Shown: positions 578 through 43,390 of the stretch, one piece after another | Numbering within the stretch: the stretch's first letter is position 1 | Layout of the letters: the number at the start of each line of letters is the position of its first letter | Origin: Candidatus Collierbacteria bacterium RIFOXYD2_FULL_45_13 | Lineage (GTDB): Bacteria > Patescibacteriota > Microgenomatia > UBA1400 > MFAQ01 | Length of the DNA: 64,000 nt | NCBI GenBank assembly: GCA_001774685.1 | Contig: MFAS01000001.1 | Span: forward strand, 159,557 to 223,556 | Reading direction: 5' to 3' | The notes under the pieces: generated by a model | What the model saw: only the letters and a program-made list of their open reading frames with translations | The model's database searches: none | What the model was told of the DNA's origin: nothing | Made by a program: the position numbers and the translations under genes

Positions 578-623
578 CGTCATTGCGAGTTTCGGTACCC
601 CGAACCGTGGCAATCTCACTCCA
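578..623. repeat. structured dispersed repeat, copy 1 (GTCATTGCGAG - short hairpin - GTGGCAATCTCACTCCA)
   Basis: Both flanks are near-identical to 31991..32033 and similar to 43353..43390. It contains an internal hairpin ttcgg-tacc-ccgaa. Confidence 0.5.
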
Positions 624-672
624 CGCGGTTTAGTTTGCATTTTACGCTCATTCGTGGTATATTATAGGCATT

Positions 673-1085
673 GGGGACGACAGGAATCGATGGAATGGTA
701 CGTTTACAGACGCAAGCCTCCTTTGGTAATAGGAGTCAAACAGACCAAAACACAACTGTCAATAAAGAAGACAAGTTACTTGGTTTCGTGGCTAGTGGAG
801 TCAAATCCCTCGCTAACGAAATCAAATCTTTCACTCCCGTTTACGCTTTTGCCTAAACTGTAGTTTAAAGACGTCTTGAGAGCCGGCGGATCCCGGGCTA
901 CTTTCAGGGCGAAAAAATACCGGATTGAATGCTTCAAGTTTGATTTAGGCTTGAAGACTAACTTTTTCTAAATCGACCATAAAGTGTTCTTGTTTGCCTG
1001 AAGCTTTATGGAAAATCGGCAATCTAAGCTTGTAGACTCTGTAATCAGATTACTCCAGACGAGGGTTCGACTCCCTCCGTCTCCA
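673..1085 (+). ncRNA. ssrA: tmRNA (ssrA)
   Basis: - The 5' end GGGGACGACAGGAATCGATGG matches the tmRNA 5' consensus.
- The 3' end carries a T-arm GAGGGTTCGACTCCCTC followed by CGTCTCC-A, which pairs with the 5' GGGGACG as a 7-bp acceptor stem.
- CCA is not encoded.
- An internal tag frame GCT AAC GAA ... TAA at 812..856 encodes ANEIKSFTPVYAFA*, with the typical A-N-D/E start and hydrophobic A-x-A end.
- The gene lies directly downstream of smpB. Confidence 0.8.
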
Positions 1086-1121
1086 CAAACAAAAAGTCCA
1101 CCCTCGCGGGAGAGTTTTTGG

Positions 1122-2996: not shown

Positions 2997-3017
2997 TGTT
3001 GGGCAGGTGTTCCTTTC

Positions 3018-3877: not shown

Positions 3878-3902
3878 ACCTAATTGTACCAAACCAATCT
3901 CC

Positions 3903-5645: not shown

Positions 5646-5680
5646 TACATCTAGTTTATATCAAGCTCTTACCATCATCC

Positions 5681-6115
5681 ATGATAAAATTACAGTGCAT
5701 GAAATACCTCTTTCGACTTCTCGCCATTACTTTATTGTTTCTAGCTCTACTCTCTCCAACTACCGCAAATGCCACATCTGTGGGACCAATCAATTTTGCC
5801 TCCCCTCAAGGATCGTGCGGACAAGACTCCGTGGAAACAGCTCTGGGGTGTATCTCCACATTAGCCGATGCCGGACCAAACTCCTTCTTTGCTTCAATAA
5901 TTAAAATTGCAGTCGGCTTAGGTGGCGGACTCGCCCTGATTCTTATGCTTTACGGAGTCTTCATTGTTACCACCTCGGCTGGCATACCCGACAAGCTCAA
6001 AGAGGGTCAAGAAGTGATTACCTCAGCAATTTCCGGTCTCATCTTCATCATCCTCTCTGTTTTTCTACTAAACTTTATTGGTATCAATATTCTTAGTCTC
6101 CCTGGTTTACAATAA
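5681..6115 (+). CDS. T4SS pilin-like protein (VirB2/TrbC-like, two-TM hairpin)
   Basis: Signal-like N-terminus, then two hydrophobic helices separated by a short polar loop (GIPDKLKEGQEVITSAISGL). The size and topology match the paralogs at 8601..11236. Confidence 0.55.
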   Translation: MIKLQCMKYLFRLLAITLLFLALLSPTTANATSVGPINFASPQGSCGQDSVETALGCISTLADAGPNSFFASIIKIAVGLGGGLALILMLYGVFIVTTSAGIPDKLKEGQEVITSAISGLIFIILSVFLLNFIGINILSLPGLQ

Positions 6116-6119
6116 AATC

Positions 6120-6479
6120 ATGTTCTTCATAAAATCAGCCTACGCCGTAAATATTGGTCAAACCACATTATCAGGTTCTGGAGCTGATATTTCCAAACTT
6201 TACAATCCCGCCGAATCCAAAATCAAGATTGGTTCAGCCTTAAACAGTCTTTTCTCCAAAGACCTCATTAATTTGGTTTTTGTCATCGCCGGACTTCTCT
6301 TTTTTGCCAGTCTTGTCATGGCCGGTTGGGACTATATGATGAGTTCCGGTGACCCCAAAAAGGTAGCAGGGGCATCCACCAGATTTATCAACAGCTTGCT
6401 GGGTATCATTATGTCCCTCGTTGCCTACCTTGTAGTCCGGATAGTTCTGTCATTCTTGGGTCTTGGCAATCTCATTTAA
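6120..6479 (+). CDS. T4SS pilin-like protein (VirB2/TrbC-like)
   Basis: TM1 - loop AGWDYMMSSGDPKKVAGAS - TM2. The loop motif is shared with the 10880 ORF (AGSDPKAVASAW). The start is taken as the ATG at 6120, just after the upstream stop. Confidence 0.5.
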   Translation: MFFIKSAYAVNIGQTTLSGSGADISKLYNPAESKIKIGSALNSLFSKDLINLVFVIAGLLFFASLVMAGWDYMMSSGDPKKVAGASTRFINSLLGIIMSLVAYLVVRIVLSFLGLGNLI

Positions 6480-6505
6480 CCTGTTTTGGTATAATTTACA
6501 CCTGC

Positions 6506-7462: not shown

Positions 7463-8611
7463 CTATACCTCCCTCTCCACCATATACCTCGCAATCCCCT
7501 CGAGGTAATCGATCGCTTCTTCATTTAACCCCTTACCTCTCAAAGAAGCCGCCGTATCCGCGGCTTTGGCCGCATATTTTCTGGCTACATTTACGGAATA
7601 GGTATGTGCCCCGCTTTCTCTGATCGCCAGTTTTGCCGCCTCTATATCGCCATCCTCCGCCATGAGTTTTCCCCAAACTTTTAACAAGGCCTCCTTTTGG
7701 TTTTCTGTTCCCATCTCCATAACTTTCACAACGAGGAGTGTCACTTTGCCTTGCAATAGATCCGAGTTGGCGGATTTTCCGATTTTTTCTTCGTTGCCAT
7801 AGACACCTAGTACATCATCCTGCAGTTGAAAGGCTATCCCGCCGTCCACCGAATACTTACTTAGTATTTCTAAGATATCTTCCGGCAAACCAGCCAGCAA
7901 ACCGCCAACCATCAAGGGGTTTTCGTATGTATAGATTGCTGTTTTGGCTCTATGCAAGCTCATCACCTTTTCTTCCGTTATCTCTCCTATTTTTGACAAA
8001 CTCACATCGTACGCTTGTCCAAAGGCCGTATTGGTAATTCCTCTCAACACTTGTTTCATTATTCTTTGAATCTTTTCTCTGTCGGAACTACACTCTAACA
8101 ATCTTTCAAATCCTAAGCACAAAATAGCATCCCCGACATTCACGGCCATCGTGTCTCCATAATGAGCATCTCCTTCGCCAAAAAACTCTTGGGTTGTGGG
8201 TCTCCCCCTCCTTATTTTGTCTCCATCCATAAAGTCATCGTGCATTAAAAGAGCCGTGTGCACCAGCTCCACCGCTTCCGCCGCTCTCCACACCCCCTCC
8301 ATATTTTCGAATTTTTGATTTTTTGATTTTTTGAGTTTTTTCCCCAGCCGATATCCATAAATCACAAAGGCTGACCTTGCCCTTTTTGCCGATCTCAAGT
8401 TGTGTTCCTTGCTGTGACACAATATTTTGTGTACCAGTTTCTTCTGTGTCGGATTAAAACCAAAATTTTTCTCAATTTCCTCATCCCAATATTTATTCAA
8501 TCTCAAATCCATTTCTTTAGCCAATTCCATCAACCTTGCTTTCGCCCACTCTCCTAGCTTGTTTGTTACCATGTGTCCAATTTTACTGTAAAATATTCGT
8601 ATGGTTATCAA
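7463..8611 (-). CDS. polyprenyl (farnesyl/geranylgeranyl) diphosphate synthase
   Basis: First Asp-rich motif LLMHDDFMDGDKIRRGRPT and second motif FQLQDDVLGV. The N-terminal region contains a KKLKKSKNQKF stretch encoded by the TTTTTGA repeat. Confidence 0.85.
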   Translation of the reverse strand: MITIRIFYSKIGHMVTNKLGEWAKARLMELAKEMDLRLNKYWDEEIEKNFGFNPTQKKLVHKILCHSKEHNLRSAKRARSAFVIYGYRLGKKLKKSKNQKFENMEGVWRAAEAVELVHTALLMHDDFMDGDKIRRGRPTTQEFFGEGDAHYGDTMAVNVGDAILCLGFERLLECSSDREKIQRIMKQVLRGITNTAFGQAYDVSLSKIGEITEEKVMSLHRAKTAIYTYENPLMVGGLLAGLPEDILEILSKYSVDGGIAFQLQDDVLGVYGNEEKIGKSANSDLLQGKVTLLVVKVMEMGTENQKEALLKVWGKLMAEDGDIEAAKLAIRESGAHTYSVNVARKYAAKAADTAASLRGKGLNEEAIDYLEGIARYMVEREV

Positions 8612-8921
8612 AACCTCTCTTGCCGCAGAATCACTGGAGAACCTCTATGCTCCAGCCAAAGCCTTGAGCGGGGGTAGTGGGGCCACTCTCGCCAAACTCA
8701 TCAATCCTCTGATATACAACGTACTTATTATCTCCGGCCTGATTGCCTTTATTGTCATCATCATCGCTGGCTTCAACTATGTTTCGGCAGGTGGTGACAA
8801 GGGCAAAATTGAACAAGCACAAAACATGCTAAACTATTCAATAATAGGCCTGATATTAGTCGTCCTCGCCTTTTTAATTACTCGGGTCATTGGAGCGATC
8901 TTCGGCTTTAAATTCTTTTAA
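8601..8921 (+). CDS. T4SS pilin-like protein (VirB2/TrbC-like), paralog
   Basis: TM1 (LIISGLIAFIVIIIAGFNYV) - loop SAGGDKGKIEQAQN - TM2. The GGDK loop motif is shared by the tandem paralogs. Confidence 0.6.
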   Translation: MVIKTSLAAESLENLYAPAKALSGGSGATLAKLINPLIYNVLIISGLIAFIVIIIAGFNYVSAGGDKGKIEQAQNMLNYSIIGLILVVLAFLITRVIGAIFGFKFF

Positions 8922-8926
8922 CAAAA

Positions 8927-9286
8927 ATGAACATCCTCAACCAACTTATCAATAGTGCTTATGCCACCGATGTCATTGGCACCATTGATTTACCCGCCGG
9001 AATCCCCAAAGAAACCAGCCAGACCACCGACATTATCTCGGCCCTTATTCGTTTTATCGTTGTTGTGGGCGGAGTTTTTGCCCTTTGGCAATTACTGTCC
9101 GGGGGTTTTCAATTTATCAGCTCCGGCGGAGACAAAGGTAAGTTGGCCGAAGCTCAAAATAAAATTACCATGAGTCTGGTCGGCCTAGTCATCATCGCCG
9201 CCAGTTTCATCATCATCGCCATTATCAGCAAGGTTCTTTTTGATGATTTCGGAGCCATCCTCGCCCCCAAATTACAATCCATCTGA
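8927..9286 (+). CDS. T4SS pilin-like protein, paralog
   Basis: Loop FISSGGDKGKLAEAQNKIT between two TM helices. Confidence 0.6.
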   Translation: MNILNQLINSAYATDVIGTIDLPAGIPKETSQTTDIISALIRFIVVVGGVFALWQLLSGGFQFISSGGDKGKLAEAQNKITMSLVGLVIIAASFIIIAIISKVLFDDFGAILAPKLQSI

Positions 9287-9287
9287 T

Positions 9288-9653
9288 ATGAACAGATTCA
9301 TCCCTACCATACACGCCGCCGACATACCTCTTGGATCAGAAGTCGGTGGAGTAGGCCCTTTTCAAACAGCCATCAGTGGAGGAGTACAGGCCGGACTTGG
9401 TAATTTGCTCTCTAATCTTATTACCACCATGACCGTCATCGGAGGTCTAGCCTTTGTTGTCTATTTCTCGCTTGGAGCGCTCGAATGGATTACCGCCGGT
9501 GGAGACAAAACGAAAGTCTCCGGTGCCCAAACCCAGATGACTCAGGCCGCCATCGGCTTGATCGCCATTGTCGCCTCCTACTTTATTATCGGTATCGTCG
9601 GAGCTGTACTCGGTTTTGATATTCTCAATCCGTTTGCCGCACTAAAACTCTAA
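9288..9653 (+). CDS. T4SS pilin-like protein, paralog
   Basis: Loop WITAGGDKTKVSGAQTQMT between two TM helices. The start is taken as the ATG at 9288, right after the upstream TGA. Confidence 0.6.
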   Translation: MNRFIPTIHAADIPLGSEVGGVGPFQTAISGGVQAGLGNLLSNLITTMTVIGGLAFVVYFSLGALEWITAGGDKTKVSGAQTQMTQAAIGLIAIVASYFIIGIVGAVLGFDILNPFAALKL

Positions 9654-9659
9654 ATATTT

Positions 9660-10010
9660 ATGTCTATCACAATCATCCGCCCCGCCCACGCTGTCAACGA
9701 AATTGTTAACAGAGCCCTTTCTCCCAATGTCCCTCAAGATCCCGGTGGCGGTTTGGCTTTTTATATAGCCAGTCTCTGGCAAACAGTTGTCACCGTCGGA
9801 GGAATTGCCTTTATCATCTATCTAGTCTGGGGCGGTATCGAGTATCTCACCTCCGGTGGGGACAAGGCCAAAATTGATGACGCCCAGAAAAAAATCACCA
9901 GTTCGGTTATCGGTGTCGGTATTTTAGTTGCCTCCTACGCCATTACCTATTTCATTCAAGCTGTCTTCAAGATTAATATTCTCAAACCTGTTTTTCCCAG
10001 CGCACTATGA
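9660..10010 (+). CDS. T4SS pilin-like protein, paralog
   Basis: Loop YLTSGGDKAKIDDAQKKIT between two TM helices. Confidence 0.6.
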   Translation: MSITIIRPAHAVNEIVNRALSPNVPQDPGGGLAFYIASLWQTVVTVGGIAFIIYLVWGGIEYLTSGGDKAKIDDAQKKITSSVIGVGILVASYAITYFIQAVFKINILKPVFPSAL

Positions 10011-10366
10011 TATTCCAAAAACTTTCTCAGGTATTTGCCGCCGATATCGAGCTCCCTATTGGAGAAATGGCCACCAAAAATAACTTTTTCGGCTATACCT
10101 GTATCGGACATCTCGTCAGCAATCTCGTCGCCGCCGCTTTTATCGTTGCCGGTATCGCTTTCTTTGTCTATCTCGTCATGGGAGGCATCCAGTGGCTTAC
10201 TTCCGGCGGAGACAAGGGAAAAATTGAGTCATCCCAGAAGATGATCTCTGCCGCCCTGATCGGCCTAGCCATCGTCGCTTCTAGCTATGCAGTCTATATG
10301 ATTGTTCTCACCTTCTTCGGTATCAATCTAGACGCCCTCTGTACCGACAATCCTCTCGGTAATTGA
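10007..10366 (+). CDS. T4SS pilin-like protein, paralog
   Basis: Loop WLTSGGDKGKIESSQKMIS between two TM helices. There is a 4-nt overlap with the upstream gene. Confidence 0.6.
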   Translation: MIFQKLSQVFAADIELPIGEMATKNNFFGYTCIGHLVSNLVAAAFIVAGIAFFVYLVMGGIQWLTSGGDKGKIESSQKMISAALIGLAIVASSYAVYMIVLTFFGINLDALCTDNPLGN

Positions 10367-10428
10367 CAATTAAAAAATCATATATAATAGTCAGTAATAC
10401 GCATAACAATTATTAAAAAATAAAAAAC

Positions 10429-10770
10429 ATGTCTTTAATTCCTCAAGCATTGGCAGCAGCTGGCACCATCGGAGTTCCCCAACCGACAGGTATGAAGATC
10501 ACCGATATTGGCGTCCTTATCAGCCGTGTTATTTCTCTAGCTTTCATCGTTGCCGGTATTCTCACTTTCGCTTTTCTCGTCATGGGAGGCATTGAGTGGC
10601 TTACTTCCGGAGGAGACAAGGGCAAAACCGAACAGGCCAGAAATCGTATCACCGCCGCGGTTGTCGGTCTTGCGATCGTGGCTGCTTCCTGGGCTTTAAT
10701 GAAACTAATCGCCTATTTCTTTGGCGTTGATGTCTTCGAGGGAAACATCAACATCCCCAAACCCTACTAA
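10429..10770 (+). CDS. T4SS pilin-like protein, paralog
   Basis: Loop WLTSGGDKGKTEQARNRIT between two TM helices. Confidence 0.6.
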   Translation: MSLIPQALAAAGTIGVPQPTGMKITDIGVLISRVISLAFIVAGILTFAFLVMGGIEWLTSGGDKGKTEQARNRITAAVVGLAIVAASWALMKLIAYFFGVDVFEGNINIPKPY

Positions 10771-10798
10771 GAATTTAGTATTAGAAAAAAACAAATTA

Positions 10799-10818
10799 CC
10801 GCCGTCAGGCGGTTTTTT
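10799..10818 (+). terminator. rho-independent terminator after the pilin array
   Basis: ccgcc-gtca-ggcgg followed by TTTTTT. Confidence 0.6.
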
Positions 10819-10830
10819 GTATCCTTTTTT

Positions 10831-10861
10831 AACTTGAGTTTTTGAGTTCTTGAGTTTTTTT
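10831..10861. repeat. tandem TTGAGTTYT repeat (3 units), intergenic copy
   Basis: aacTTGAGTTTTTGAGTTCTTGAGTTTTTTT. Related copies lie at 8311..8342, 33907..33925, 44524..44561 and 53105..53131. Confidence 0.5.
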
Positions 10862-10879
10862 ACGATATAATTATTCTCA

Positions 10880-11236
10880 ATGACCCTTTCTTTCATTCCC
10901 CAAGCATACGCCGCCAGCAATTGGTCTGGAGAATGCGTTGGTCAAAATGTCGCTGGTGTGGACGCCACAGATGTGGCTTCTATCCAAGGAATTACCTGTT
11001 TGCTAAGAAACGTTCTTTCCCCTATACCAGCCCTCATTGCTCTTGCCGCCGTGGGCATCATTATCATGGCCGGCATTCGTCTAACTACTGCCGGATCGGA
11101 TCCCAAAGCAGTAGCTAGTGCTTGGAACATGTTCACTTGGGCCGTCATTGGTCTTATCCTGCTCTCCGCCGTGTGGCTGGCTCTTGTCCTTATCGAAAAC
11201 TTCACTGGTGCCAAGGTTACCCAATTCGGCATTTAA
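10880..11236 (+). CDS. T4SS pilin-like protein (divergent paralog)
   Basis: Signal-like N-terminus, then TM1 - loop TTAGSDPKAVASAWN - TM2. Confidence 0.5.
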   Translation: MTLSFIPQAYAASNWSGECVGQNVAGVDATDVASIQGITCLLRNVLSPIPALIALAAVGIIIMAGIRLTTAGSDPKAVASAWNMFTWAVIGLILLSAVWLALVLIENFTGAKVTQFGI

Positions 11237-11266
11237 CCTTTTCCCTTACCAAGTATAATTATTTCA

Positions 11267-22600: not shown

Positions 22601-22602
22601 AC

Positions 22603-23253: not shown

Positions 23254-23282
23254 AACCTGTCGTCTTCAGTTATACTTAATTC

Positions 23283-25175: not shown

Positions 25176-25177
25176 CC

Positions 25178-27709: not shown

Positions 27710-27714
27710 CGATT

Positions 27715-29831: not shown

Positions 29832-30217
29832 TTGTTTCTAGTATACATAATCTTCATGGCCATTCCGACCGAATGTTTTATGACATTGTAATCTGTTTAA
29901 GTTATTTGTTATTTCTTTACTGTTATATTGTTTTATTTAAATAAAAACAGTAGTGAATAGTAGTAGAAGTGGTGGACAAGTGGACAATAGCTTTACCACT
30001 TGCCTACTTTCTCTGTTGTTAATCTTTTATCGACTCTTACATCCACCCTTTCTATTCAAAAGTCAACAAATCCCTTCTTGACCGATTGCTATCAACTCTC
30101 TTTCTGTGTGGATTCTTTTCTGAATAACTTGATTGCTTATCCACCCATTTCTAAACAATCTAATACTTCTTCACAGTTGTTGAAGATATCCACAGAGCGT
30201 GGATAAGATGTGGATAG
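29832..30217. other. oriC: putative chromosomal replication origin (oriC) between dnaA and dnaN
   Basis: Cluster of DnaA-box-like 9-mers:
- TGTGGACAA x2 (complement of TTGTCCACA) at about 29967..29985.
- GATATCCACA at 30186.
- GTGGATAAG and TGTGGATAG at 30199..30218.
An AT-rich stretch at about 29880..29950 is a candidate DNA unwinding element. Confidence 0.6.
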
Positions 30218-31597
30218 TTAAGTGTATAACGCTTGCTTCAAAGCCATCACCTTTCGCCGTATATCCATGTTTTTTTCAATTTCCAGTTCCATTTTATCGC
30301 ATGCATGCATGACAGTGGTGTGATCTCGACCTCCCATTAGTTCTGCCACCTCCGTTAAGTTTAGTTTTAATGTTTCTCTCAGAATGTACATCGCGATATG
30401 TCTCGCCACTACCAAGTCAGCCTTCCGGCTTTCTCCTAAAAGATCTTTGTTTCTAAAATCAAAATACTTAGCCACAGTCGAAATTACCTTGATCGGTCGC
30501 ACCTTAATATCTTTCACTGTATTGGCCGGGAGTCCCATCGTCTGCTGAACCATCTCTCTCGTCAAGACTCCTCCGTCAATACTGGCTCCTGTTGCCAGTC
30601 TGACAAAGGTACCCTCAAGCTCGCGGGCGTTCGTTGGGAAACTATTAGCAATCAGTTCAAAGGCACTATCCTCAACCTCAGCTTTAATATCCAGCGCCCG
30701 CTGGCGCAATATCGCCACTCTCATTTCATAATCCGGTAATCCAATGTCCACCATCATTCCTCCAAGGAACCTGCTTCGCAGTCTATCCTCCAAACCGACA
30801 ATCTCCTGAGGCTTCCGGTCACTTGTCATGATGATCTGTGCTTGTTTATTTGTCAGCTCGTTAAAAGTATGGAAAAACTCTTCTTGAGTTGAATCCTTTC
30901 CACCAAAGAATTGGACATCGTCTACTAGTAGCGCTCCCACTTGCCGGTATTTCTTTTTAAAGGCATCCGTCATTTTTGATTTGAAAGAACCAACCAGGTC
31001 GTTAGTAAATTGCTCACTGGTCACACAGACTACTTTACCAACTCCTTTTCTGACTAGTTCGTGCCCTACAGCATGCATCAAATGTGTCTTCCCTACTCCG
31101 ACCCCTCCATAGATAAATAGTGGATTGTGTCTGGTGCCCGGGTAATCTACCACTGCTTTGGCCGCCGCAAAAGCTAAGCGGTTCGAACTCCCCACCATAT
31201 ATGATTCAAAGACGTAACGCGGGTTTAGATTAGTTCCTGTTTGTCTATTCTCTTCCGGCGGAGTAAAAAGTCCAATATTTGTCTCCCTAATCTCAGAGTC
31301 TTTAAGCTCTTTCTTACTGGCCTCAACTTCTCTTGTTGCCTCTACCACAACCAAGGCCATATCACATTTCTTGCCGGTGATCTTCTCCGCTGCCTGTTTG
31401 ATAATGCTGTAATACTTGGTTTCAATGGTGTGGCTTAAGAACATCGAAGAGGCCGCCAGTTCTAAAAGAAGTCTTTGTTCGTCAATTGGTGTCACCGATC
31501 TGAGAAAACAAGGCTTGATAAAGCCCGCAAAACTGGCGGGAGACATGGAAACACCTAACTCGCCGCAAATGCTATGCCACAACTTCTCACTGTCCAT
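30218..31597 (-). CDS. dnaA: chromosomal replication initiator DnaA
   Basis: Walker A FIYGGVGVGKTHLMHAVG. Box VII/DNA-binding domain region ARHIAMYILRETLKLNLTEVAELMGGRDHTTVMHACDKM. Likely start MDSEKLWHSICGEL at 31597. The longest ORF extends to 31672. Confidence 0.9.
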   Translation of the reverse strand: MDSEKLWHSICGELGVSMSPASFAGFIKPCFLRSVTPIDEQRLLLELAASSMFLSHTIETKYYSIIKQAAEKITGKKCDMALVVVEATREVEASKKELKDSEIRETNIGLFTPPEENRQTGTNLNPRYVFESYMVGSSNRLAFAAAKAVVDYPGTRHNPLFIYGGVGVGKTHLMHAVGHELVRKGVGKVVCVTSEQFTNDLVGSFKSKMTDAFKKKYRQVGALLVDDVQFFGGKDSTQEEFFHTFNELTNKQAQIIMTSDRKPQEIVGLEDRLRSRFLGGMMVDIGLPDYEMRVAILRQRALDIKAEVEDSAFELIANSFPTNARELEGTFVRLATGASIDGGVLTREMVQQTMGLPANTVKDIKVRPIKVISTVAKYFDFRNKDLLGESRKADLVVARHIAMYILRETLKLNLTEVAELMGGRDHTTVMHACDKMELEIEKNMDIRRKVMALKQALYT

Positions 31598-31721
31598 ACG
31601 CCCATTCTCACTACTTATCCACATTTTTACAACCCCCAATTTACCCAAAAAGAATAATACTATCCACATCACCTCCTTTGAGGGTATAATGTCCTGTTCC
31701 CATCAATGTTAAAATAATCAT

Positions 31722-31859
31722 ATGCCCAAAAGAGTCTACCAACCCAAAAAAGTCAAACGTATTAGAAAACACGGTTTTCGTATTAAGATGGCCAGTGCCT
31801 CAGGTCGTAATGTCATCAAACGCCGACGTGCTAAGGGTCGAACCAAGTTAGCGCTCTAA
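31722..31859 (+). CDS. rpmH: 50S ribosomal protein L34
   Basis: Translation is [45 protein letters not shown]. It is below the 60-aa ORF-track cutoff. Confidence 0.85.
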
Positions 31860-31860
31860 C

Positions 31861-32250
31861 ATGCCACTTCCGGCCATAAACCGGCTTCCCTTACGCAAAG
31901 AAAGAGATCGTCTCACCCGTGAAGGAAAATCTTTCCACACCCGCCACTTCACCCTCGTCACCGCCCCTATCCCCGTCATCCCGATCTCTTCGTCATTGCG
32001 AGGAGGCAAAGCCGACGTGGCAATCTCACTCCATCAAGTTCCCCGCTTCTCCATCCTGCTCTCCAAAAAAACCGCCCGTCTCGCCGTCGACCGCAATCAA
32101 ATCAAGCGTGTCACCTCTGCTCTCCTGGCCGAACTCCACTCCCAATTCCCTTCAGCCGACTACCTGGTCATCCCCAAACGTTCCGTCCTCAACACCCCTC
32201 ACTCAGATCTTCTCTCCGACCTCTCCTCCCTCCTCCCCAAGCTCAAATAG
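31861..32250 (+). CDS. rnpA: RNase P protein component, with an in-frame 22-aa insertion derived from a dispersed repeat
   Basis: Position immediately after rpmH. ...FTLVTAPIP[VIPISSSLRGGKADVAISLHQV]PRFSILLSKKTARLAVDRNQIKR carries the RnpA signature KKxxxAVxRNxxKR. The bracketed segment is encoded by repeat copy 31991..32033. Confidence 0.7.
   Translation: MPLPAINRLPLRKERDRLTREGKSFHTRHFTLVTAPIPVIPISSSLRGGKADVAISLHQVPRFSILLSKKTARLAVDRNQIKRVTSALLAELHSQFPSADYLVIPKRSVLNTPHSDLLSDLSSLLPKLK
31991..32033. repeat. structured dispersed repeat, copy 2 (inside rnpA coding sequence, in frame)
   Basis: cgtcattgcgag-gaggcaaagccgac-gtggcaatctcactcca. Both flanks are nearly identical to copy 1 at 578..623. 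Confidence 0.5.
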
Positions 32251-32368
32251 TTACATCCTCCGACCTCTCCCTGACATCCCATAACTATCTTTTTGCCCGA
32301 TTTGAAGGTACAATCCCCTCTTAGAACGCATCCGCACTCTAAAAAGGAGAATTTACCCATGTCATGGA

Positions 32369-32776
32369 TTGACGACGCCAAAAAACAAGCCGAGCTCAAG
32401 CACATTCAGGAAAGTTATTCCCGAAGATATTGAAGCCATCGAAAAAGTATTAGAAAAATCAAAGGATGAAGGAATAATAATAGTTTCCGTCAAAATGGGA
32501 CGAAGTGGAGATGGTAGTCTTCGAGAAGTTGGAAATTTTGAGCAACTGAGGCATCGTGGTACAAGTATGGGTAGTGATATGGGCGAATCTGACTACGATT
32601 ACACTAGTTGCTTAGTCATTCAATGGAATTTGAGATTTAGAAATGAGAACGGATCTTTCTGCGAGAAGGAATTAAATTTGGGTATAAATTGTGAAGATAA
32701 CACTTTTGTACCAACAATGACCGCAAAAGAATTTGAGGAAGAAATACGGAAATGGCTTGTCAGCATATTTTATTAA
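32369..32776 (+). CDS. hypothetical protein (135 aa, TTG start); possible frameshifted gene
   Basis: An SD (aaggag) plus ATG at 32359 opens a 24-codon frame (MSWIDDAKKQAELKHIQESYSRRY*). The long ORF is in another frame. No domain recognised. Confidence 0.3.
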   Translation: MTTPKNKPSSSTFRKVIPEDIEAIEKVLEKSKDEGIIIVSVKMGRSGDGSLREVGNFEQLRHRGTSMGSDMGESDYDYTSCLVIQWNLRFRNENGSFCEKELNLGINCEDNTFVPTMTAKEFEEEIRKWLVSIFY

Positions 32777-32826
32777 CAACAAAACTACCAACAGGGTTCA
32801 CCACCTTGTTTTTTTATTGTCAAGAA

Positions 32827-32886
32827 CCCGTCATTTCGACCGAAGTGGAGAAATCTCAAAGTATTCGCATCAAAATGGAGTGAGAT
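32827..32886. repeat. degenerate copy or copies of the structured repeat, partly inverted
   Basis: cccgtcatttcgaccgaagtggagaaatctca ... tggagtgagatc. The last part is the reverse complement of the ATCTCACTCCA arm. Confidence 0.35.
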
Positions 32887-33000
32887 CTTCCCCTACGGGG
32901 ATCAACGAGACTCACTAAACTCGAGATGACAAATAAATAATACTTAACTCCAATAATGCTAATTATTGACTTCGGGTATCTTATGGCATAAATTAAATAT

Positions 33001-33837
33001 ATGCCCAAAAAAGTAATTGATCCTACCAAGATCGCTATTTTTCAGAAGAAAGAAATCCGCAAAACCATTTACAAAAACGAATGGTGGTTTGTGATTACTG
33101 ATATTGTAGTGGCCTTAACCGATTCCGTTCAACCTGTCGGATATATAAAAGATATGCGACGCAGAGATGAACAACTCTCCAAAGGGTGGGGGCAGATCGC
33201 CACCCCCCTTTCAATCGCAACCAGTGGAGGTAATCAAAAGATAAATTGTGCCAATACAGAAGGCATCTTCCGAATCATCCAATCGATCCCCTCTCCCAAA
33301 GCCGAACCATTCAAGCGTTGGCTGGCCAAAGTCGGCTACGAAAGAATCCAAGAAATAGAAGATCCGGAACTCGCCCAAAAAAGAGCCAGAGCCATTTACA
33401 AAGCCAAAGGCTACCCCGATAGTTGGATAGAAAAACGCATAAGGTCAATCGCTATTCGTGAAGATCTCACCGAACAATGGGAAATTCACGGAGTCAATCT
33501 CCAAAAGGAATATGCCATTCTTACGGCCGAAATCTCCCAAGCCGCTTTTGGAGTCACTCCCTCACAACACAAACAGATAAAGGGATTGGAAAGACAAAAT
33601 CTCCGGGATCACATGTCCGACCTGGAACTACTCTTCTCCATGCTAGGGGAAGCTTCCACTACCGCCATTACCAAGACCGAACACCCCAAAGGTTTCACCG
33701 AAAACAAAAAGGTCTCTCGTCGAGGTGGAAAGATCGCCGGAGATGCTCGGGTAAACCTGGAAAAAGAAATCGGCCAGAGTGTTGTCACACCCAAAAACTT
33801 CCTCCCCAATCAAAATGACAAAAAGAAACTAAAATAA
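33001..33837 (+). CDS. Bro-N domain protein (phage antirepressor-like, KilA-C-type C-terminus)
   Basis: EIRKTIYKNEWWFVITDIVVALTDSVQPVGYIKDM...GNQKINCANTEGIFRIIQSIPSPKAEPFKRWLAKVG is the Bro-N signature. The gene is inserted between rnpA and yidD. Confidence 0.7.
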   Translation: MPKKVIDPTKIAIFQKKEIRKTIYKNEWWFVITDIVVALTDSVQPVGYIKDMRRRDEQLSKGWGQIATPLSIATSGGNQKINCANTEGIFRIIQSIPSPKAEPFKRWLAKVGYERIQEIEDPELAQKRARAIYKAKGYPDSWIEKRIRSIAIREDLTEQWEIHGVNLQKEYAILTAEISQAAFGVTPSQHKQIKGLERQNLRDHMSDLELLFSMLGEASTTAITKTEHPKGFTENKKVSRRGGKIAGDARVNLEKEIGQSVVTPKNFLPNQNDKKKLK

Positions 33838-33840
33838 TCA

Positions 33841-33880
33841 GTCATTCCCGACCTGAGTGGGCCTCTGCTACCCGAAGAGG
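33841..33880. repeat. weak, degenerate copy of the structured repeat
   Basis: gtcattcccgacctgagtgggcctctgctacccgaagagg shares GTCATT and taccc-gaa with copy 1. Confidence 0.25.
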
Positions 33881-33906
33881 TAACTCTATACAAATTACTC
33901 CAAAAA

Positions 33907-33925
33907 TTTGATTTTTTGAGTTCTT
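33907..33925. repeat. TTTGATTTTTTGAGTTCTT repeat, intergenic copy
   Basis: Same TTGAGTTYT / TTTTTGA family as 10831..10861. Confidence 0.4.
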
Positions 33926-33970
33926 CCGCAACACAAATGTAAAATATACAATGTAAAATCTAAAATATTT

Positions 33971-34222
33971 ATGATTTCTTTTTACCAAAAATATATCTCT
34001 CCCTATTACCACACACTAGGCCACGCTCTATTTGGCAATTCCTTTGCCTGTCGCTTCTCCCCTACCTGCTCCGAGTATGCCAAAGAATCCTACCGCCTTC
34101 ATGGTATCATTATCGGGACAAAACTCAGTCTCGGCCGTTTTCTCCGTTGTCAACCCTTTAGTAAAGGAGGAATCGACCCCGTCCCACCCCGCCAAGCGGC
34201 AGGGCCTGCTAAAATCAAATAA
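33971..34222 (+). CDS. yidD: membrane protein insertion efficiency factor YidD
   Basis: ISPYYHTLGHALFGNSFACRFSPTCSEYAKESYRLHG is the YidD signature. Confidence 0.8.
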   Translation: MISFYQKYISPYYHTLGHALFGNSFACRFSPTCSEYAKESYRLHGIIIGTKLSLGRFLRCQPFSKGGIDPVPPRQAAGPAKIK

Positions 34223-40186: not shown

Positions 40187-40225
40187 CGCTTGAGAAGGCA
40201 GGCATTCTAAGATACAATACCACTC

Positions 40226-40903: not shown

Positions 40904-41015
40904 TTCATTGCCATTGCCCGCCTAGCCCAGTCACCGGCTCCGGTCAAACTTGACACAGCATATTCTCGATCCTATAATACCCAACTGTAAGGCCACTTTA
41001 ACTAAAGGAGTTGAA

Positions 41016-41210
41016 ATGACAGCGAATTCTGGGAATAATATGCTTCGGAAAATCGTGATCGTTGTAATGTCCTTAATTGCCTCGATCTATGTGGGGTGGT
41101 TACTTTCCCACTGGGGAATCATATTCGGAATCGTTGTTGGGGGTGCTCTCTTTGTCATCTCCGTCTACTCCGGAATGAAAAACCCAAACAGTTTTTTCAA
41201 ACAGTGGTAA
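41016..41210 (+). CDS. small membrane protein (64 aa, 2 TM)
   Basis: Strong SD AAGGAG 5 nt upstream of the ATG at 41016. Two hydrophobic helices. Confidence 0.4.
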   Translation: MTANSGNNMLRKIVIVVMSLIASIYVGWLLSHWGIIFGIVVGGALFVISVYSGMKNPNSFFKQW

Positions 41211-41228
41211 ACCAAACTCCCCGCACAG

Positions 41229-41258
41229 AACCGTCCTTTAAAAAGGGGCGGTTTTTAT
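41229..41258. terminator. candidate bidirectional terminator between convergent genes
   Basis: accgtccttt-aaaa-aggggcggt forms a bulged stem followed by TTTTTATTTTT. Confidence 0.35.
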
Positions 41259-41270
41259 TTTTAAAAATAA

Positions 41271-43343
41271 CTACCACTTTTCAGAGATAAGTAACTTTTG
41301 ATTTGAATACACCTCTTTCCATACCGCTTCCGTTACAAAGGGGACAAAAGGATGAAGCATTACCAAAAATGATTTGAACCCATCCTTTAGAACCTCATCG
41401 CTTATCTTTCCTTGCTTGTTCTCTTCTATCTGCACATCACAGAACCAGTGCCAAAATTCATTATAGACATACTCCGCCGCCAGACCGACCCGGTTCTCCT
41501 CTAGCAGTCTCGTCAATTCCTGCCTTACCTCTTGAATTTTCATCCTAAAATCATCGTCTCGTTCATTGTTTCCTGCCTTAAGTTCTTGAGTTATTGATGT
41601 TTTGAGATCTTGAACATATCGTCCCGCATTCCAAATTTTATTTGCAAAATTTCTCATTCCTCTTACCTTATTTTCTCCGGTGTTACTATCTTGTCCTGCT
41701 GTAGTACTCATCACCAGAGCCATTCTCAGGGAATCTGCTCCATATTTTTCAACCAGCTCCAGGGGGTTAATCACGTTTCCTATACTCTTGCTCATTTTTC
41801 TGCCCTGTTCATCTCTTACCAATCCATGTAAATACACTGTTTTGAATGGGGATTTCCCTGTCATATAAATCCCCAACATCATCATTCTCATTACCCAGAA
41901 GGGGAGAATGTCATAAGCTGTTTCCATGACCGTTGTTGGATAGAAAGCTTCAAAATCACCCGGCTTACCCGTTTCTAATGTGACTACCGGCCACTGGCCG
42001 GAAGAAAACCAGGTATCAAACGTGTCCGTTTCTTGTACCCACCCATCGCCTGGGCTCGTCTCACTCACTACGTAATCATCGTTTTGAGTTTTATACCACA
42101 CCGGCATTCTTATTCCCCAAACAATCTGCCGGCTGATATTCCAGTCTCTTAGGTTTGTCAACCAATGCCGCAGTATCTTATCGTGGCCTGATCCCAAAAT
42201 CACCGTTTCCCCTGAGTCTAATGCTGCAAGCGCTTTGTCGGCCAATGTTTTTACTTTTACAAAAAATTGTTTCATTGGCAGAGGCTCAATTGCTCGATGA
42301 CATCGATAACAAGTACCCACACTGTGCAGGTATGGTTTTGTTTCCAACAAGGCTTCTCCCAAATCACTCGCGACTTTCTCTCTGGCCTCTGCCACACTCA
42401 ATCCTTCATATTTCCCGGCGTTCTTAGTCATCTTGCCGTTGGTCCCAATTATCTGATGATCCCTCACTATTTCATCCATATTCCACCCTTGTCGTACCGC
42501 CACTTCCCAATCATTGTTGTCATGTGCCGGAGTAATTTTTACCGCCCCGGTTCCAAACTCCATATCCACCATTGAGTCTCCGACAATTGGGATCTCTCTA
42601 CCTACCAAAGGCAAGATAACTTTCTGACCGATTAGGTGTTTGTATCTTAAGTCCTCTGGATTAACGGCCACGGCTACATCTCCGAGCATTGTCTCTGGTC
42701 TCGTTGTCGCTACTACTATTTGTCCATAGCGGATCATATACAGCTTGTCTTCTTTGTCCTCATGATCAACTTCCAGCTCGGAATAAGCGGTTCCACATTT
42801 GGTACAGTAATTTACTAGTTTTACACTTCTGTAAACCAATCCTTCTTCATGAAGTTTGAAGAAATTCTTTTTTACCTCTTTCACAATTTCCGGGTCAAGT
42901 GTAAATTTGTATCTACTCCAGTCTGCGCTTGCACCCAATCTCTTCATCTGATCAATGGCGACACCGGAGTTCTCGTGTACATAATCCCAGATCATCTGAT
43001 AAAGGGTTTCTCGGTCAAAATCAAACCTGCTCTTACCCCGTTTTGTCAGTTTCTTTTCAAATACAAACTGGGTTTCGATTCCTGCGTGGTCTGTACCGGG
43101 TAACCAGAGAACAGCCTCACCCTTCATTCGGTGAAATCTGACAAATATATCTTCAATCGTTACAAACATTGCATGCCCCACGTGCAATGGATCGTTAGCG
43201 TTCGGGGGCGGCATGATAATTGTAAAAGTCTTCCGTCCTGTCTTCGCCACGTCGTCTCCGGCTAGAGGAGTAAAGACCCCACTATTCTCCCATTCCGTGT
43301 AGATTTTTGTCTCGCTGTCTTTGTGATTATAATTTTTATCCAT
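41271..43343 (-). CDS. valS: valyl-tRNA synthetase (short form lacking C-terminal coiled-coil)
   Basis: HIGH motif PPPNANDPLHVGHA and KMSKS motif GRKMSKSIGNVI. TWFSSGQWP...FYPTTVMETAYDILPFWVMRMMM is ValS-type. Confidence 0.85.
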   Translation of the reverse strand: MDKNYNHKDSETKIYTEWENSGVFTPLAGDDVAKTGRKTFTIIMPPPNANDPLHVGHAMFVTIEDIFVRFHRMKGEAVLWLPGTDHAGIETQFVFEKKLTKRGKSRFDFDRETLYQMIWDYVHENSGVAIDQMKRLGASADWSRYKFTLDPEIVKEVKKNFFKLHEEGLVYRSVKLVNYCTKCGTAYSELEVDHEDKEDKLYMIRYGQIVVATTRPETMLGDVAVAVNPEDLRYKHLIGQKVILPLVGREIPIVGDSMVDMEFGTGAVKITPAHDNNDWEVAVRQGWNMDEIVRDHQIIGTNGKMTKNAGKYEGLSVAEAREKVASDLGEALLETKPYLHSVGTCYRCHRAIEPLPMKQFFVKVKTLADKALAALDSGETVILGSGHDKILRHWLTNLRDWNISRQIVWGIRMPVWYKTQNDDYVVSETSPGDGWVQETDTFDTWFSSGQWPVVTLETGKPGDFEAFYPTTVMETAYDILPFWVMRMMMLGIYMTGKSPFKTVYLHGLVRDEQGRKMSKSIGNVINPLELVEKYGADSLRMALVMSTTAGQDSNTGENKVRGMRNFANKIWNAGRYVQDLKTSITQELKAGNNERDDDFRMKIQEVRQELTRLLEENRVGLAAEYVYNEFWHWFCDVQIEENKQGKISDEVLKDGFKSFLVMLHPFVPFVTEAVWKEVYSNQKLLISEKW

Positions 43344-43352
43344 AAAAGGTTT

Positions 43353-43390
43353 GTCATTGCGAAGTCATCTAAGGCGACTGTGGCAATCTA
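43353..43390. repeat. structured dispersed repeat, copy 3 (valS 5' leader)
   Basis: gtcattgcgaa-gtcatctaaggcgact-gtggcaatct. Confidence 0.4.

What the first reader, a model, noticed from the sequence alone, without database searches (positions are those of the whole stretch)
578..43390. Family of about 45-nt structured repeats (GTCATTGCGAG - hairpin - GTGGCAATCTCACTCCA); one copy sits in-frame inside rnpA
Copies at 578..623 and 31991..32033 share both flanks almost exactly and differ only in the small central hairpin. A third copy at 43353..43390 lies in the valS leader. Degenerate or partly inverted versions are at 32827..32886 and 33841..33880.

Copy 2 adds 22 codons (VIPISSSLRGGKADVAISLHQV) to RNase P protein between the conserved APIP and PRFSILLSKK segments without breaking the frame. 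This is the kind of tolerated MITE-like insertion seen in some reduced genomes. The other copies sit at gene boundaries next to the smpB-ssrA junction and the Bro-N insertion.
Basis: seen in the sequence. Interest (0 to 1): 0.6.

Follow-up and report, generated by a model that had tools for sequence, protein, structure and literature searches.

The report
Strand-specific DNA hairpin repeats colonising rnpA
The repeats are real and belong to a known, bacteria-wide class of single-strand DNA hairpin repeats (CGTC-tagged REPs, also called NTS or Ssn-related motifs); one copy sits harmlessly in frame in a floppy loop of the RNase P protein of a Candidatus Collierbacteria genome.

Summary
Three copies share the shell YGTCATTGCGAG…CGYGGCAATC(TCACTCCA) around a variable hairpin (578-623, 31991-32033, 43352-43390). 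There is also a tail-to-tail pair of sibling elements (32829-32858 +, 32876-32931 -) and two remnants.

Copy 2 is an in-frame insertion in the disordered loop between two strands of RnpA. That loop holds 0 to 5 such elements in different Collierbacteria.

The elements are not classical MITEs. They have the tag, the AT-first stem and the tail of the CGTC-tagged REPs (Di Nocera 2013). That class includes Neisseria dRS3/NTS and Rickettsia RPE-4/6. Chenal et al. (2025) tied it to small GIY-YIG single-strand DNA nucleases (Ssn).

This exact shell occurs in at least 15 phyla and in viral contigs. In seven loci, two of them from candidate-phyla (CPR) genomes, inverted copies of it flank a ~95-aa GIY-YIG gene on one or both sides.

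Possibly new points: a shell with a free apical cassette, heavy in-frame colonisation of Collierbacteria proteins, and a 92% orientation bias toward the C-rich strand.

No nuclease gene lies in the window, and how the elements spread is not shown. Verdict: new member of a known kind, moderate interest.

The parts
578..623 (+). Copy 1: C-GTC tag, ATTGC/GCAAT closing stem, core hairpin TTTCGG-TACC-CCGAA, tail CTCACTCCA. It starts 6 nt after the stop of ORF 315-572 and ends 50 nt before ssrA (673-1088).
   Evidence: 69 bits. The identical 45 nt occur in at least 12 unrelated contexts in related genomes. The orthologous site in L179 keeps the element.
31991..32033 (+). Copy 2: same shell and tail, with core GAG-GC-AAA-GC-CGAC (the class with tandem G.A mismatches). 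It lies in frame inside rnpA and encodes SSLRGGKADVAISL.
   Evidence: 46 bits, E=2e-12.
31975..31991 (+). Collapsed remnant (GTCATCCCGATCTCTTC) of a second, sibling element directly upstream of copy 2. It encodes VIPIS.
   Evidence: Relatives have a full element here (L007 GTCATTCCGAGCGTAGTCGAGGAATCTC; L005 ATCATTCCGACCGAGGTGGAAAAATCTC).
31861..32250 (+). rnpA, the host gene. The insert falls at residues ~36-60, between strands 30-35 and 62-65.
   Evidence: Pfam PF00825, E=4.8e-16. Ortholog alignment A1. AlphaFold model with mean pLDDT 82 but ~50 and coil over the insert. E. coli RnpA aligns only from residue 60 onward.
43352..43390 (+). Copy 3: the shell has one mismatch (GCGAA), the core is imperfect and the tail is lost. 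It lies 10 nt upstream of the ATG of the minus-strand ValS-like gene 41271-43343, antisense to it.
   Evidence: 33 bits, E=5e-8. It is absent from the orthologous spacer of L211.
32829..32858 (+). Sibling-subfamily element GTCATTTCGACCGAAGTGGAGAAATCTCA (ATTTC/GAAAT stem). It is the left half of a tail-to-tail dimer.
   Evidence: E=0.024. Near-identical elements occur in L005 (GTCATTCCGACCGAAATGGAGGAATCTC) and in metagenome loci.
32876..32931 (-). Inverted element GTCATCTCGAG...GAGATCTCACTCCA, read on the minus strand. It is the right half of the tail-to-tail dimer, 17 nt from the left half.
   Evidence: E=0.065.
33841..33856 (+). 5' half of an element (GTCATTCCCGACCTGA), 4 nt after the Bro-N stop codon. 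The 3' half is lost.
   Evidence: It gives a 16/16 match to GTCATTCCCGACCTGATCGGGAATC, found in L007:912 and in metagenome loci. This stretch also fits the published SRM search pattern.
6448..6479 (+). Possible decayed copy (TGTCATT-13 nt-AATCTCATTTAA) at the 3' end of ORF 6078-6476. Weak.
   Evidence: 13.5 bits, E=0.08. I do not count it as established.

Best explanation
The repeats are strand-asymmetric DNA hairpin elements of the superfamily described as CGTC-tagged REPs. That superfamily includes Neisseria dRS3/NTS, Rickettsia RPE-4/RPE-6 and the 'Ssn-related motifs'.

Anatomy, shown here:
- an unpaired 5' tag YGTC;
- a closing stem ATTGC/GCAAT;
- a conserved asymmetric internal loop: a bulged G, a G-Y pair, an A.G mismatch, then G-C;
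- an apical hairpin free to vary in sequence and length;
- a C directly after the stem, and a short tail (CTCACTCCA in Collierbacteria).

How it most likely works, inferred by analogy:
- The shell is read as single-stranded DNA, on the GTCATT strand only, by a ~95-aa single-domain GIY-YIG nuclease of the Ssn type. N. meningitidis SsnA reads NTS in this way and cuts a few nucleotides 5' of the tag.
- In seven loci from other bacteria, two of them from candidate-phyla (CPR) genomes, copies of exactly this shell flank such a gene. In five of the seven an inverted copy lies on each side, with the tags pointing outward.
- The elements have multiplied in trans through the genome. The multiplication step itself is not shown.
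- Their 92% placement on the C-rich strand points to a process acting on single-stranded DNA at replication. That process could be oriented insertion, or selection against a cleavable hairpin on the exposed template.

The rnpA copy:
- Inside genes, only copies that keep the frame and carry no stop codon survive.
- The shell is open in 5 of 6 frames, and copies 1 and 2 are 45 and 42 nt long.
- Copy 2 therefore persists as a disordered extension of a surface loop of RnpA, with no sign that it has a protein function.
For: Family is real and widespread.
Hits come from Chloroflexota, Bacillota, Bacteroidota, Pseudomonadota, Rickettsiales, Planctomycetota, Nitrospirota, CPR and others.

Hairpin is maintained.
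- Among 222 unique cores, positions next to the shell pair in 70-94% of cases against about 40-48% when shuffled.
- On alignment A2, 93.8% of cells are paired, 6 of 13 pairs show compensatory changes, and the covariation score is 0.348 against 0.141, with 0/500 shuffles reaching it.

Features of CGTC-tagged REPs.
- Position -1 is C or T in 90-97% of copies.
- The stem starts A-T, T-A.
- The sibling copies encode VIPAKAGI-type peptides. These are the peptides listed for CGTC-1 in the supplement of PMC3733652.

Link to Ssn.
- NTS = CGTCATTCCCGCGMAVGCGGGAATCYRG. SsnA acts on ssDNA only and on one strand only, and the loop can be replaced (PMC11893778).
- GIY-YIG genes (PF01541, E about 1e-16) are flanked by copies of this shell in L023, L110, L103 and L035. 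The copies lie on both sides and are inverted in L023, L110 and L035. In L103, whose gene abuts the contig end, only the downstream copy is seen.
- The same holds in 3 of 4 loci picked by protein alone: L363 (Patescibacteria), L364 and L366. In L366 the upstream copy is a variant shell (GTCATTACGAG...AGTAATC).
- Collier-type contig L141 has an element followed 45 nt later by MSNEYNTTIYIGVTSNL, a GIY-YIG N-terminus cut by the contig end.

Dispersal and turnover.
- The same 45-nt element occurs in at least 12 contexts.
- It matches 45/46 nt between the window's smpB-ssrA spacer and L007's rnpA, although the flanking genes are about 78% identical.
- Presence/absence differs between relatives.

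Orientation.
- 162 of 176 independent sites lie on the C-rich strand.
- Coding bases split only 54:46 between the strands.

Tolerated insertion.
Against: - No GIY-YIG ORF exists in the 64-kb window or in the other roughly 780 kb of Collier-type loci, apart from the truncated one in L141. A cognate nuclease in this genome is therefore not shown.
- I could not test whether the flanking GIY-YIG clade belongs to cd10448. NCBIfam and PDB gave no hit.
- The shell does not fit the published SRM search pattern.
- Its interrupted long stem and variable core do not fit the 8-9 bp stem and 4-5 nt loop of the four described CGTC families.
- Ssn is a nuclease with a demonstrated role in limiting transformation. 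No one has shown that it multiplies the repeats.
- The orientation bias was not seen in the pan-bacterial loci (57:78).
- Which replicative strand is the C-rich one cannot be decided from the window, because the skew does not switch at dnaA.
- Thermodynamic stability of the individual copies is not better than that of shuffled sequence.
Confidence: 0.66

Rival explanations
1. The elements are ordinary REPs mobilised by a RAYT (a Y1 HUH transposase of the IS200 family), like GTAG-tagged REPs and REPINs.
For: - A RAYT (PF01797, 25.8 bits) is present at a syntenic position in two related Collierbacteria genomes: L196 = P0032, and L239 = P0033 on the contig that also carries the P0005 rnpA.
- GTAG REPs in the same loci show the same strand bias (47:8).
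- A GTAG REP is nested in the apex of a shell element at L007:5437.
Against: - These RAYT genes are flanked and even interrupted by GTAG REPs (GTAGGGGTTTCATTTATGAAACCC), never by GTC-tagged elements.
- No Y1 transposase lies near the shell elements in about 2.7 Mb of loci from genomes, metagenomes and viral contigs.
- The window has no GTAG REP at all.
- The literature reports no RAYT flanked by CGTC repeats (PMC3733652).
Confidence: 0.12
2. The copies are selected in place as RNA hairpins (terminators, mRNA stabilisers or leader structures) and are not a DNA-level element.
For: - Several copies start within a few nucleotides of a stop codon (579, 32830, 33841).
- Elements are mostly intergenic in other phyla, with a weak sense bias (30 against 17).
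- The stem covaries.
Against: - Copy 3 is antisense to both neighbouring genes.
- Many copies sit inside ORFs in either orientation.
- Orientation follows strand composition (92%), not transcription (coding 54:46).
- No T-tract follows the hairpin.
- Folding energies are no better than for shuffled sequence.
- There is no Rfam match.
- SsnA does not bind the RNA form of NTS.
Confidence: 0.07
3. The copies spread and homogenise mainly by recombination, gene conversion or template switching between hairpins, not by any enzyme-driven insertion.
For: The whole core is replaced inside an unchanged shell and unchanged flanks at orthologous sites. This is seen in rnpA (window against L007), in L171/L183 against L197, and in the L136 group. 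Partial shell duplications occur (L202 against L218).
Against: - The shell arms are only 11-15 nt.
- Conversion can swap cores between existing copies, but it cannot create copies at new sites such as protein loops.
- Conversion does not explain the strand bias or the GIY-YIG association.
Confidence: 0.1
4. They are classical MITEs, that is, deletion derivatives of a TIR-bearing insertion sequence.
For: - The tail-to-tail dimer at 32829-32931 has the same geometry as the two elements that flank the GIY-YIG gene elsewhere, but without the gene.
- Chenal et al. note that NTS-ssnA-NTS resembles an IS.
Against: - Most copies are single hairpins of 28-60 nt.
- No target-site duplication was seen in filled/empty pairs, although those pairs are diverged.
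- No DDE-type transposase recurs near the elements.
Confidence: 0.05

Closest known systems
NTS / Ssn-related motifs (SRM) with the GIY-YIG single-strand nuclease SsnA (Chenal et al. 2025, Nat Commun, PMC11893778)
   Same: - A 5' (C)GTC tag, an A-T-first palindrome, a C right after the stem, and a hairpin whose loop is dispensable.
- Hundreds of copies per genome.
- Copies flank a ~95-aa single-domain GIY-YIG gene, inverted on both sides in five of the seven loci seen here.
- Strand asymmetry.
   Different: - The shell is ATTGCGAG...CGYGGCAAT with a bulge and an A.G internal loop, plus a long free apical cassette. It does not match the published SRM pattern.
- It is frequent inside genes here, whereas NTS is intragenic in only 2% of cases.
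- The host is a CPR bacterium, a group not mentioned in that paper.
- No nuclease gene was seen in the window.
- Replication-strand bias is not reported there.
CGTC-tagged REPs, families CGTC-1 to -4 (Di Nocera, De Gregorio & Rocco 2013, PMC3733652); includes Neisseria dRS3
   Same: - Tag CGTC/TGTC; stem beginning A-T, T-A; tail near CCA.
- Mostly intergenic, found as dimers and clusters, sometimes in frame inside genes.
- No adjacent RAYT.
- The sibling copies in L005 rnpA encode VIPAKAGI, as the CGTC-1 copies listed in that paper do.
   Different: - The described families have 8-9 bp stems and 4-5 nt loops, and were found in 5 phyla.
- The window's family has an interrupted stem with a variable core of 8-38+ nt, and occurs in many more phyla.
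- None of its typical peptides (SLRG.., VIAS....LAMT) appear in that paper's list of intragenic copies.
Rickettsia palindromic elements (RPE). RPE-4 and RPE-6 are equated with CGTC-4 and CGTC-1 in PMC3733652. In-frame RPE insertions in proteins: Ogata et al. 2000 and 2002, cited from my own knowledge.
   Same: Palindromic repeats inserted in frame into essential genes of a small genome, at surface-exposed positions, with several elements per gene.
   Different: - The host lineage is different (CPR, not Alphaproteobacteria).
- RPE-1 is 100-150 bp.
- Here one loop of RnpA is a recurrent site holding 0-5 elements across relatives.
GTAG-tagged REPs / REPINs with RAYT
   Same: - Short tagged hairpins acting as ssDNA, with a single-copy domesticated enzyme gene flanked by its own repeats.
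- They co-occur in related Collierbacteria and show the same strand bias.
   Different: - The tag is GTC, not GTAG.
- The associated gene is GIY-YIG, not a Y1 HUH transposase.
- The RAYT genes found here are flanked only by GTAG REPs.

Membership tests
CGTC-tagged REP superfamily (PMC3733652) | Unpaired terminal tag CGTC (or TGTC/CCTC) at one end of the palindrome | tested here: met
   Window copies read C/C/T + GTC. Position -1 is C 71% / T 26% in 87 Collier-type contexts, and T 57% / C 33% in 142 pan-bacterial ones.
CGTC-tagged REP superfamily (PMC3733652) | [quoted passage not shown] | tested here: met
   ATTGC/GCAAT is invariant in 25/25 rows of A2. The siblings have ATTCC/GGAAT, ATTTC/GAAAT and ATCCC/GGGAT.
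CGTC-tagged REP superfamily (PMC3733652) | Stem of 8-9 bp and loop of 4-5 nt (families CGTC-1 to -4) | tested here: not met
   The window's three main copies have a 13-pair interrupted stem with a bulge and an A.G mismatch, and cores of 16-19 nt. Elsewhere cores run from 8 to more than 38 nt. The feature is met only by sibling copies such as GTCATTCCTGCGAAGGCAGGAATCC in L005.
CGTC-tagged REP superfamily (PMC3733652) | Short unpaired 3' tail, mostly CCA | tested here: inconclusive
   The tail is CTCACTCCA in window copies 1 and 2. It is C-CA in L005/L006 (GGCAATCCA) and variable after GGCAATCTC in other phyla.
Ssn-related motifs (SRM/NTS; PMC11893778) | Matches the published degenerate search sequence HGTCWYN(0-2)YYVSBRHN(0-5)WNVSBRGN(0-2)RNCYNB | tested here: not met
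   None of the three main copies nor the sibling copies match. Only the canonical NTS control and the remnant at 33840 match.
Ssn-related motifs (SRM/NTS; PMC11893778) | Copies flank a single-domain GIY-YIG gene of about 94 aa on both sides (NTS-ssn-NTS) | tested here: met
   This is met for the shell family in other genomes. Inverted copies lie on both sides in L023, L110 and L035 and in L363, L364 and L366, the last three chosen by protein only. In L366 the upstream copy is a variant shell. In L103 only the downstream copy is visible, because the gene abuts the contig end. In L365 only one side is occupied. L141 (Collier-type) shows the upstream element and the first 17 residues only. It is not seen inside the window.
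Ssn-related motifs (SRM/NTS; PMC11893778) | [quoted passage not shown] | not testable with these tools
   Only Pfam PF01541 could be scored (E about 1e-16). NCBIfam and PDB gave no hit.
Ssn-related motifs (SRM/NTS; PMC11893778) | Bound and cut as single-stranded DNA only, on the tagged strand only, a few nucleotides 5' of the tag | not testable with these tools
   This needs EMSA and nuclease assays. The only indirect support is the 162:14 strand bias.
MITE | Terminal inverted repeats derived from an IS, plus a target-site duplication | tested here: not met
   Five filled/empty comparisons show no duplicated target, though the pairs are about 75% identical, so the junctions are fuzzy. Most copies are single hairpins. 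No transposase recurs nearby.
GTAG REP / RAYT | GTAG tag, and a RAYT gene flanked by the same repeats | tested here: not met
   The tag is GTC. RAYT genes in relatives are flanked by GTAG REPs only. No Y1 transposase lies near the shell elements.

The most novel reading that the evidence does not exclude
The ATTGCGAG...CGYGGCAAT elements may be a distinct, pan-bacterial specificity class of the Ssn/hairpin system with three properties.
- The nuclease reads only a ~25-nt shell and ignores a freely exchangeable apical cassette.
- Element orientation is set by replication: the cleavable strand is kept off the exposed lagging-strand template, or insertion happens at the fork.
- In candidate-phyla bacteria the elements have become a major source of new loop and linker sequence in essential proteins (RnpA, LepA, MiaA, PBP1).

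If so, the replication-strand bias would be the first in vivo sign that these nucleases, or the process that spreads their sites, act at the fork and not only on transforming DNA.
Probability: 0.3. Interest if true: 0.65.

Novelty: new member of a known kind. Interest (0 to 1): 0.45.

Why it matters
- It links three literatures that describe the same kind of object: CGTC-tagged REPs, Rickettsia RPEs, and Neisseria NTS with the Ssn nucleases. It extends them to candidate-phyla bacteria.
- It offers a shell-plus-free-cassette variant with its own flanking GIY-YIG genes. That is directly useful for anyone mining Ssn enzymes with new ssDNA specificities.
- The 92% strand bias is a testable clue to where in the cell these hairpins are read.
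- For annotation, it explains a large class of odd peptides (SLRG..AIS, VIAS..QS, VIPAKAGI, ..LAMT) in predicted proteins. It also warns that length variation in RnpA, LepA and MiaA of these genomes is repeat-derived, not functional divergence.

Tried and rejected
- **Rfam.** Searches at gathering and E-value thresholds found nothing at the copies.
- **Single-sequence folding.** z-scores were -0.3 to -1.2, not distinguishable from shuffles. The case for structure rests on covariation instead.
- **Literature search for the exact 11-mers.** No paper among the 15 listed hits holds them. A search for the candidate phyla radiation together with palindromic in-frame repeats found nothing relevant.
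- **Clustering of proteins around 120 pan-bacterial loci (90 aa or longer).** Only generic families recurred, such as response regulators. This screen missed the ~95-aa GIY-YIG genes. They came to light only after the Ssn paper turned up in a dRS3 search.
- **RAYT as the partner enzyme.** Rejected, because RAYT genes are flanked by GTAG REPs only.
- **Target-site duplication.** The filled/empty pairs are too diverged for base-level junctions.
- **Published SRM regex.** It does not capture this shell.
- **Complete Collierbacteria Ssn gene.** I could not retrieve it. The last protein search returned only more distant GIY-YIG proteins.
- **Pan-bacterial orientation against local skew.** No signal, probably because 8-kb skew is noisy in those genomes.


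Full report
**What is in the window**

The three main copies are as described. GTCATTGCGAG is exact at 579 and 31992, and has one mismatch at 43353. GTGGCAATCTCACTCCA is exact at 607 and 32017. The joint pattern CATTGCGA-N8-38-GCAATC gives 3 hits against none in 100 shuffles.

I built a covariance model from 25 related sequences. Copy 1 was in that set; copies 2 and 3 were not. The model scores the three copies at 69, 46 and 33 bits. It then gives three marginal hits at 32829-32863 (+), 32876-32931 (-) and 6448-6479 (+).

Reading those regions shows the following:
- 32830-32858 is a sibling element, GTCATTTCGACCGAAGTGGAGAAATCTCA.
- The minus strand from 32930 to 32876 is an inverted element, GTCATCTCGAG...GAGATCTCACTCCA. 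The two form a tail-to-tail dimer.
- 33841-33856 is the first 16 nt of GTCATTCCCGACCTGATCGGGAATC, an element present in relatives.
- 31975-31991 (GTCATCCCGATCTCTTC) is a collapsed element just upstream of copy 2.

All copies but one lie on the + strand.

**Source and context**

The window is 100% identical to a 1.09-Mb contig, GCA_001774675.1. The closest RnpA homologs that carry a name come from Candidatus Collierbacteria and the Microgenomates group.
- Copy 1 lies between a small ORF and ssrA.
- Copy 2 lies inside rnpA.
- Copy 3 lies 10 nt upstream of the start codon of a minus-strand ValS-like gene, so it is antisense to it.

**The rnpA insertion**

The ORF is intact and matches Pfam Ribonuclease_P over residues 4-128. 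In an alignment of 28 orthologs, the segment between FTLVTAP and PRFSILLSKK is hypervariable. Distant orthologs of 108-117 aa have none of the repeat-derived peptides there, and P0014 has about 70 extra residues.

The DNA shows why:
- L005 carries five tandem elements of four subfamilies in this loop.
- L007 carries two.
- L006 carries one, in a different reading frame, followed by a GTAG-type REP.
- L008 carries none.

An AlphaFold model has the RnpA fold at pLDDT 80-94. Residues about 36-60 are coil at pLDDT about 50, between strands 30-35 and 62-65. E. coli RnpA aligns only from residue 60 onward.

The insertion is therefore lineage-specific, sits in a surface loop, and that loop is a recurrent landing or retention site. 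The shell is open in five of six frames, as I read it directly from the sequence.

**The family beyond the window**

- 120 loci in the species-representative genomes, where about 34 would be expected by chance for the whole collection;
- 110 metagenome loci for the version carrying the Collierbacteria tail;
- 120 viral contigs.

Hosts include Chloroflexota, Bacillota, Bacteroidota (cultured Flavobacteria among them), Pseudomonadota, Rickettsiales, Planctomycetota, Nitrospirota, Leptospirales, Fibrobacter and several CPR lineages.

The shell is constant, while the core varies in length and sequence. There are 222 unique cores. Positions next to the shell pair in 70-94% of them, against about 40-48% when shuffled. 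On an ungapped 46-column alignment, 93.8% of cells pair, 6 of 13 pairs show compensatory change, and no shuffle reaches the covariation score.

Two shell classes exist. One is GAG[hairpin]CGYGG. The other is GAGGAG[hairpin]CGACGYGG, which places tandem G.A mismatches in the stem.

Elements are mostly intergenic. They show only a weak sense bias (30:17) and also occur as inverted pairs and tandem clusters.

**Evidence for dispersal and turnover**
- The same 45-nt element (core TTTCGGTAYYCCGAACCGY) lies in at least 12 unrelated contexts.
- L007's rnpA copy matches the window's copy 1 at 45 of 46 nt, although the flanking genes are about 78% identical.
- At orthologous sites the whole core can differ while the shell and flanks stay the same. 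This is seen in rnpA (window against L007), in L171/L183 against L197, and in the L136 group.
- Presence/absence differs between relatives. Copy 3 is missing from L211. Conversely, L167 and L211 carry two elements in the linker of the large gene that the window has at 50554-53982.
- No clean target-site duplication was seen, but the comparable genomes are only about 75% identical.

In Collier-type contigs, 39 of 87 contexts lie inside ORFs with at least 25 codons on each side. Pfam confirms the host protein in several cases: LepA (between the G domain and domain II), MiaA, a class-A PBP and an FkbM methyltransferase.

**What it is**

Di Nocera et al. (PMC3733652) defined CGTC-tagged REPs by these features:
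- a terminal CGTC/TGTC tag;
- a stem beginning A-T, T-A;
- a tail near CCA;
- mostly intergenic copies, with some in frame inside genes;
- no dedicated transposase.

They equated these repeats with Neisseria dRS3 and Rickettsia RPE-4/6. Their list of repeat-encoded peptides (VIPAKAGI, SFPRKRES, DSRFRGND, WIPAFAGMT) matches the sibling elements in L005 rnpA. In my data position -1 is C or T in 90-97% of copies.

Chenal et al. (PMC11893778) then made these points:
- The oriented 28-nt NTS (CGTCATTCCCGCGMAVGCGGGAATCYRG) is bound by SsnA, a 94-aa single-domain GIY-YIG protein.
- Binding requires single-stranded DNA and only the tagged strand. The cut falls a few nucleotides upstream.
- The three nucleotides before the palindrome and the C after it are critical.
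- The loop can be replaced or extended.
- Homologs are widespread and usually flanked by their own motifs.

I tested that last feature for the window's shell. A ~95-aa GIY-YIG gene (PF01541, E about 1e-16) has inverted shell copies on both sides, tags pointing outward, in L023, L110 and L035. In L103, where the gene abuts the contig end, only the downstream copy is seen. Three of four loci that I chose by protein similarity alone also have a copy on each side: L363 (Patescibacteria), L364 (between gyrB and gyrA) and L366, whose upstream copy is a variant shell.

A Collier-type contig (L141) shows an element, then 45 nt, then MSNEYNTTIYIGVTSNL. The contig ends there.

**Strand bias**

The + strand of the window is C-rich throughout, with skew from -0.04 to -0.32. 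This holds regardless of gene strand, and there is no switch at dnaA.

In Collier-type loci the GTCATT strand lies on the C-rich strand in these proportions:
- 63:8 for the ascertained family;
- 131:14, 41:5 and 13:0 for the subfamilies;
- 162:14 after probable orthologous sites are merged.

Coding bases split only 54:46. GTAG REPs in the same loci show 47:8. The pan-bacterial loci show no bias (57:78).

I read this as evidence that the elements matter as single-stranded DNA during replication. Two readings fit: oriented insertion, or selection that keeps the cleavable strand off the exposed template. This is inference. The polarity of the skew relative to the replication fork is not known for this genome.

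**What remains open**
- No GIY-YIG gene lies in the window or in the other Collier-type loci.
- cd10448 membership could not be tested.
- The shell fails the published SRM pattern and the 8-9 bp stem / 4-5 nt loop definition of the four CGTC families.
- Nobody has shown that Ssn multiplies its sites.
- A RAYT exists in related Collierbacteria, but it is tied to GTAG REPs, not to these elements.

**Verdict**

It is a new member of a known kind, with some features that may not have been reported before.

Noticed in passing
window 1-64000 (especially 28000-34000): GC skew of the + strand is negative everywhere (-0.04 to -0.32) and does not change sign at the dnaN-dnaA / rpmH-rnpA divergent junction, where an origin would be expected. 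It is also independent of gene strand. Either the origin lies elsewhere or the skew has another cause.
   Followed up: partly
L196:6413-6967, L239:2501-3061, L241:2501-3124: RAYT (Y1_Tnp) genes of related Collierbacteria carry an inverted pair of GTAG REPs in frame inside their own ORF, just after the HUH motif. They also take their TAG stop codon from a flanking GTAG REP. In L196 and L239 the gene sits at a syntenic position next to the CCA-adding enzyme gene.
   Followed up: partly
L007:5437-5489: A GTAG REP (GTAGGGGTTTGATTTATCAAACCC) is nested in the apical loop of a GTC-tagged shell element. One hairpin-repeat family can therefore insert into the tip of another.
   Followed up: no
Cores in L143, L132 and others; peptide LPVRQAGL in L177 and L167: A 20-nt perfect palindrome, CCTGCCTGCCGGCAGGCAGG, recurs inside element cores and in protein linkers. 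It looks like a further hairpin repeat family of these genomes.
   Followed up: no
window 52820-52840, within gene 50554-53982: The low-complexity linker of the large TraG/VirD4-like + NUDIX protein contains GCTGCAATCTCAG (peptide AAIS). Relatives L167 and L211 carry two full elements about 25-30 codons further along the same linker. This could be a decayed element turned into ordinary coding sequence.
   Followed up: partly
window 32251-33970: The rnpA-yidD spacer holds an unknown 135-aa ORF and a Bro-N domain gene (33001-33837). These are absent from relatives L006 and L007, which have a HAD hydrolase there instead. The segment is bordered by hairpin elements.
   Followed up: partly
L035:2544-3019: In a Falkowbacteria contig, the GIY-YIG gene flanked by shell elements is split by a ~128-nt palindromic insertion (2727-2854). 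It is probably a pseudogene.
   Followed up: no
window 673-1088: ARAGORN predicts that the tmRNA encodes an unusually long 32-residue tag (VNKEDKLLGFVASGVKSLANEIKSFTPVYAFA).
   Followed up: no
window 8600-11250 and 21800-28700: There is a run of six or more paralogous small membrane proteins with a shared GGDKGK motif (repeat family D1). Nearby is a conjugation / type-IV-secretion-like cluster (PrgI, TraC-like, TraG P-loop, M23 peptidase).
   Followed up: no
P0011 (JGI gene call for the same rnpA): One public annotation calls only an 84-aa product covering 65% of RnpA at 100% identity. The inserted repeat may have misled that gene call.
   Followed up: no
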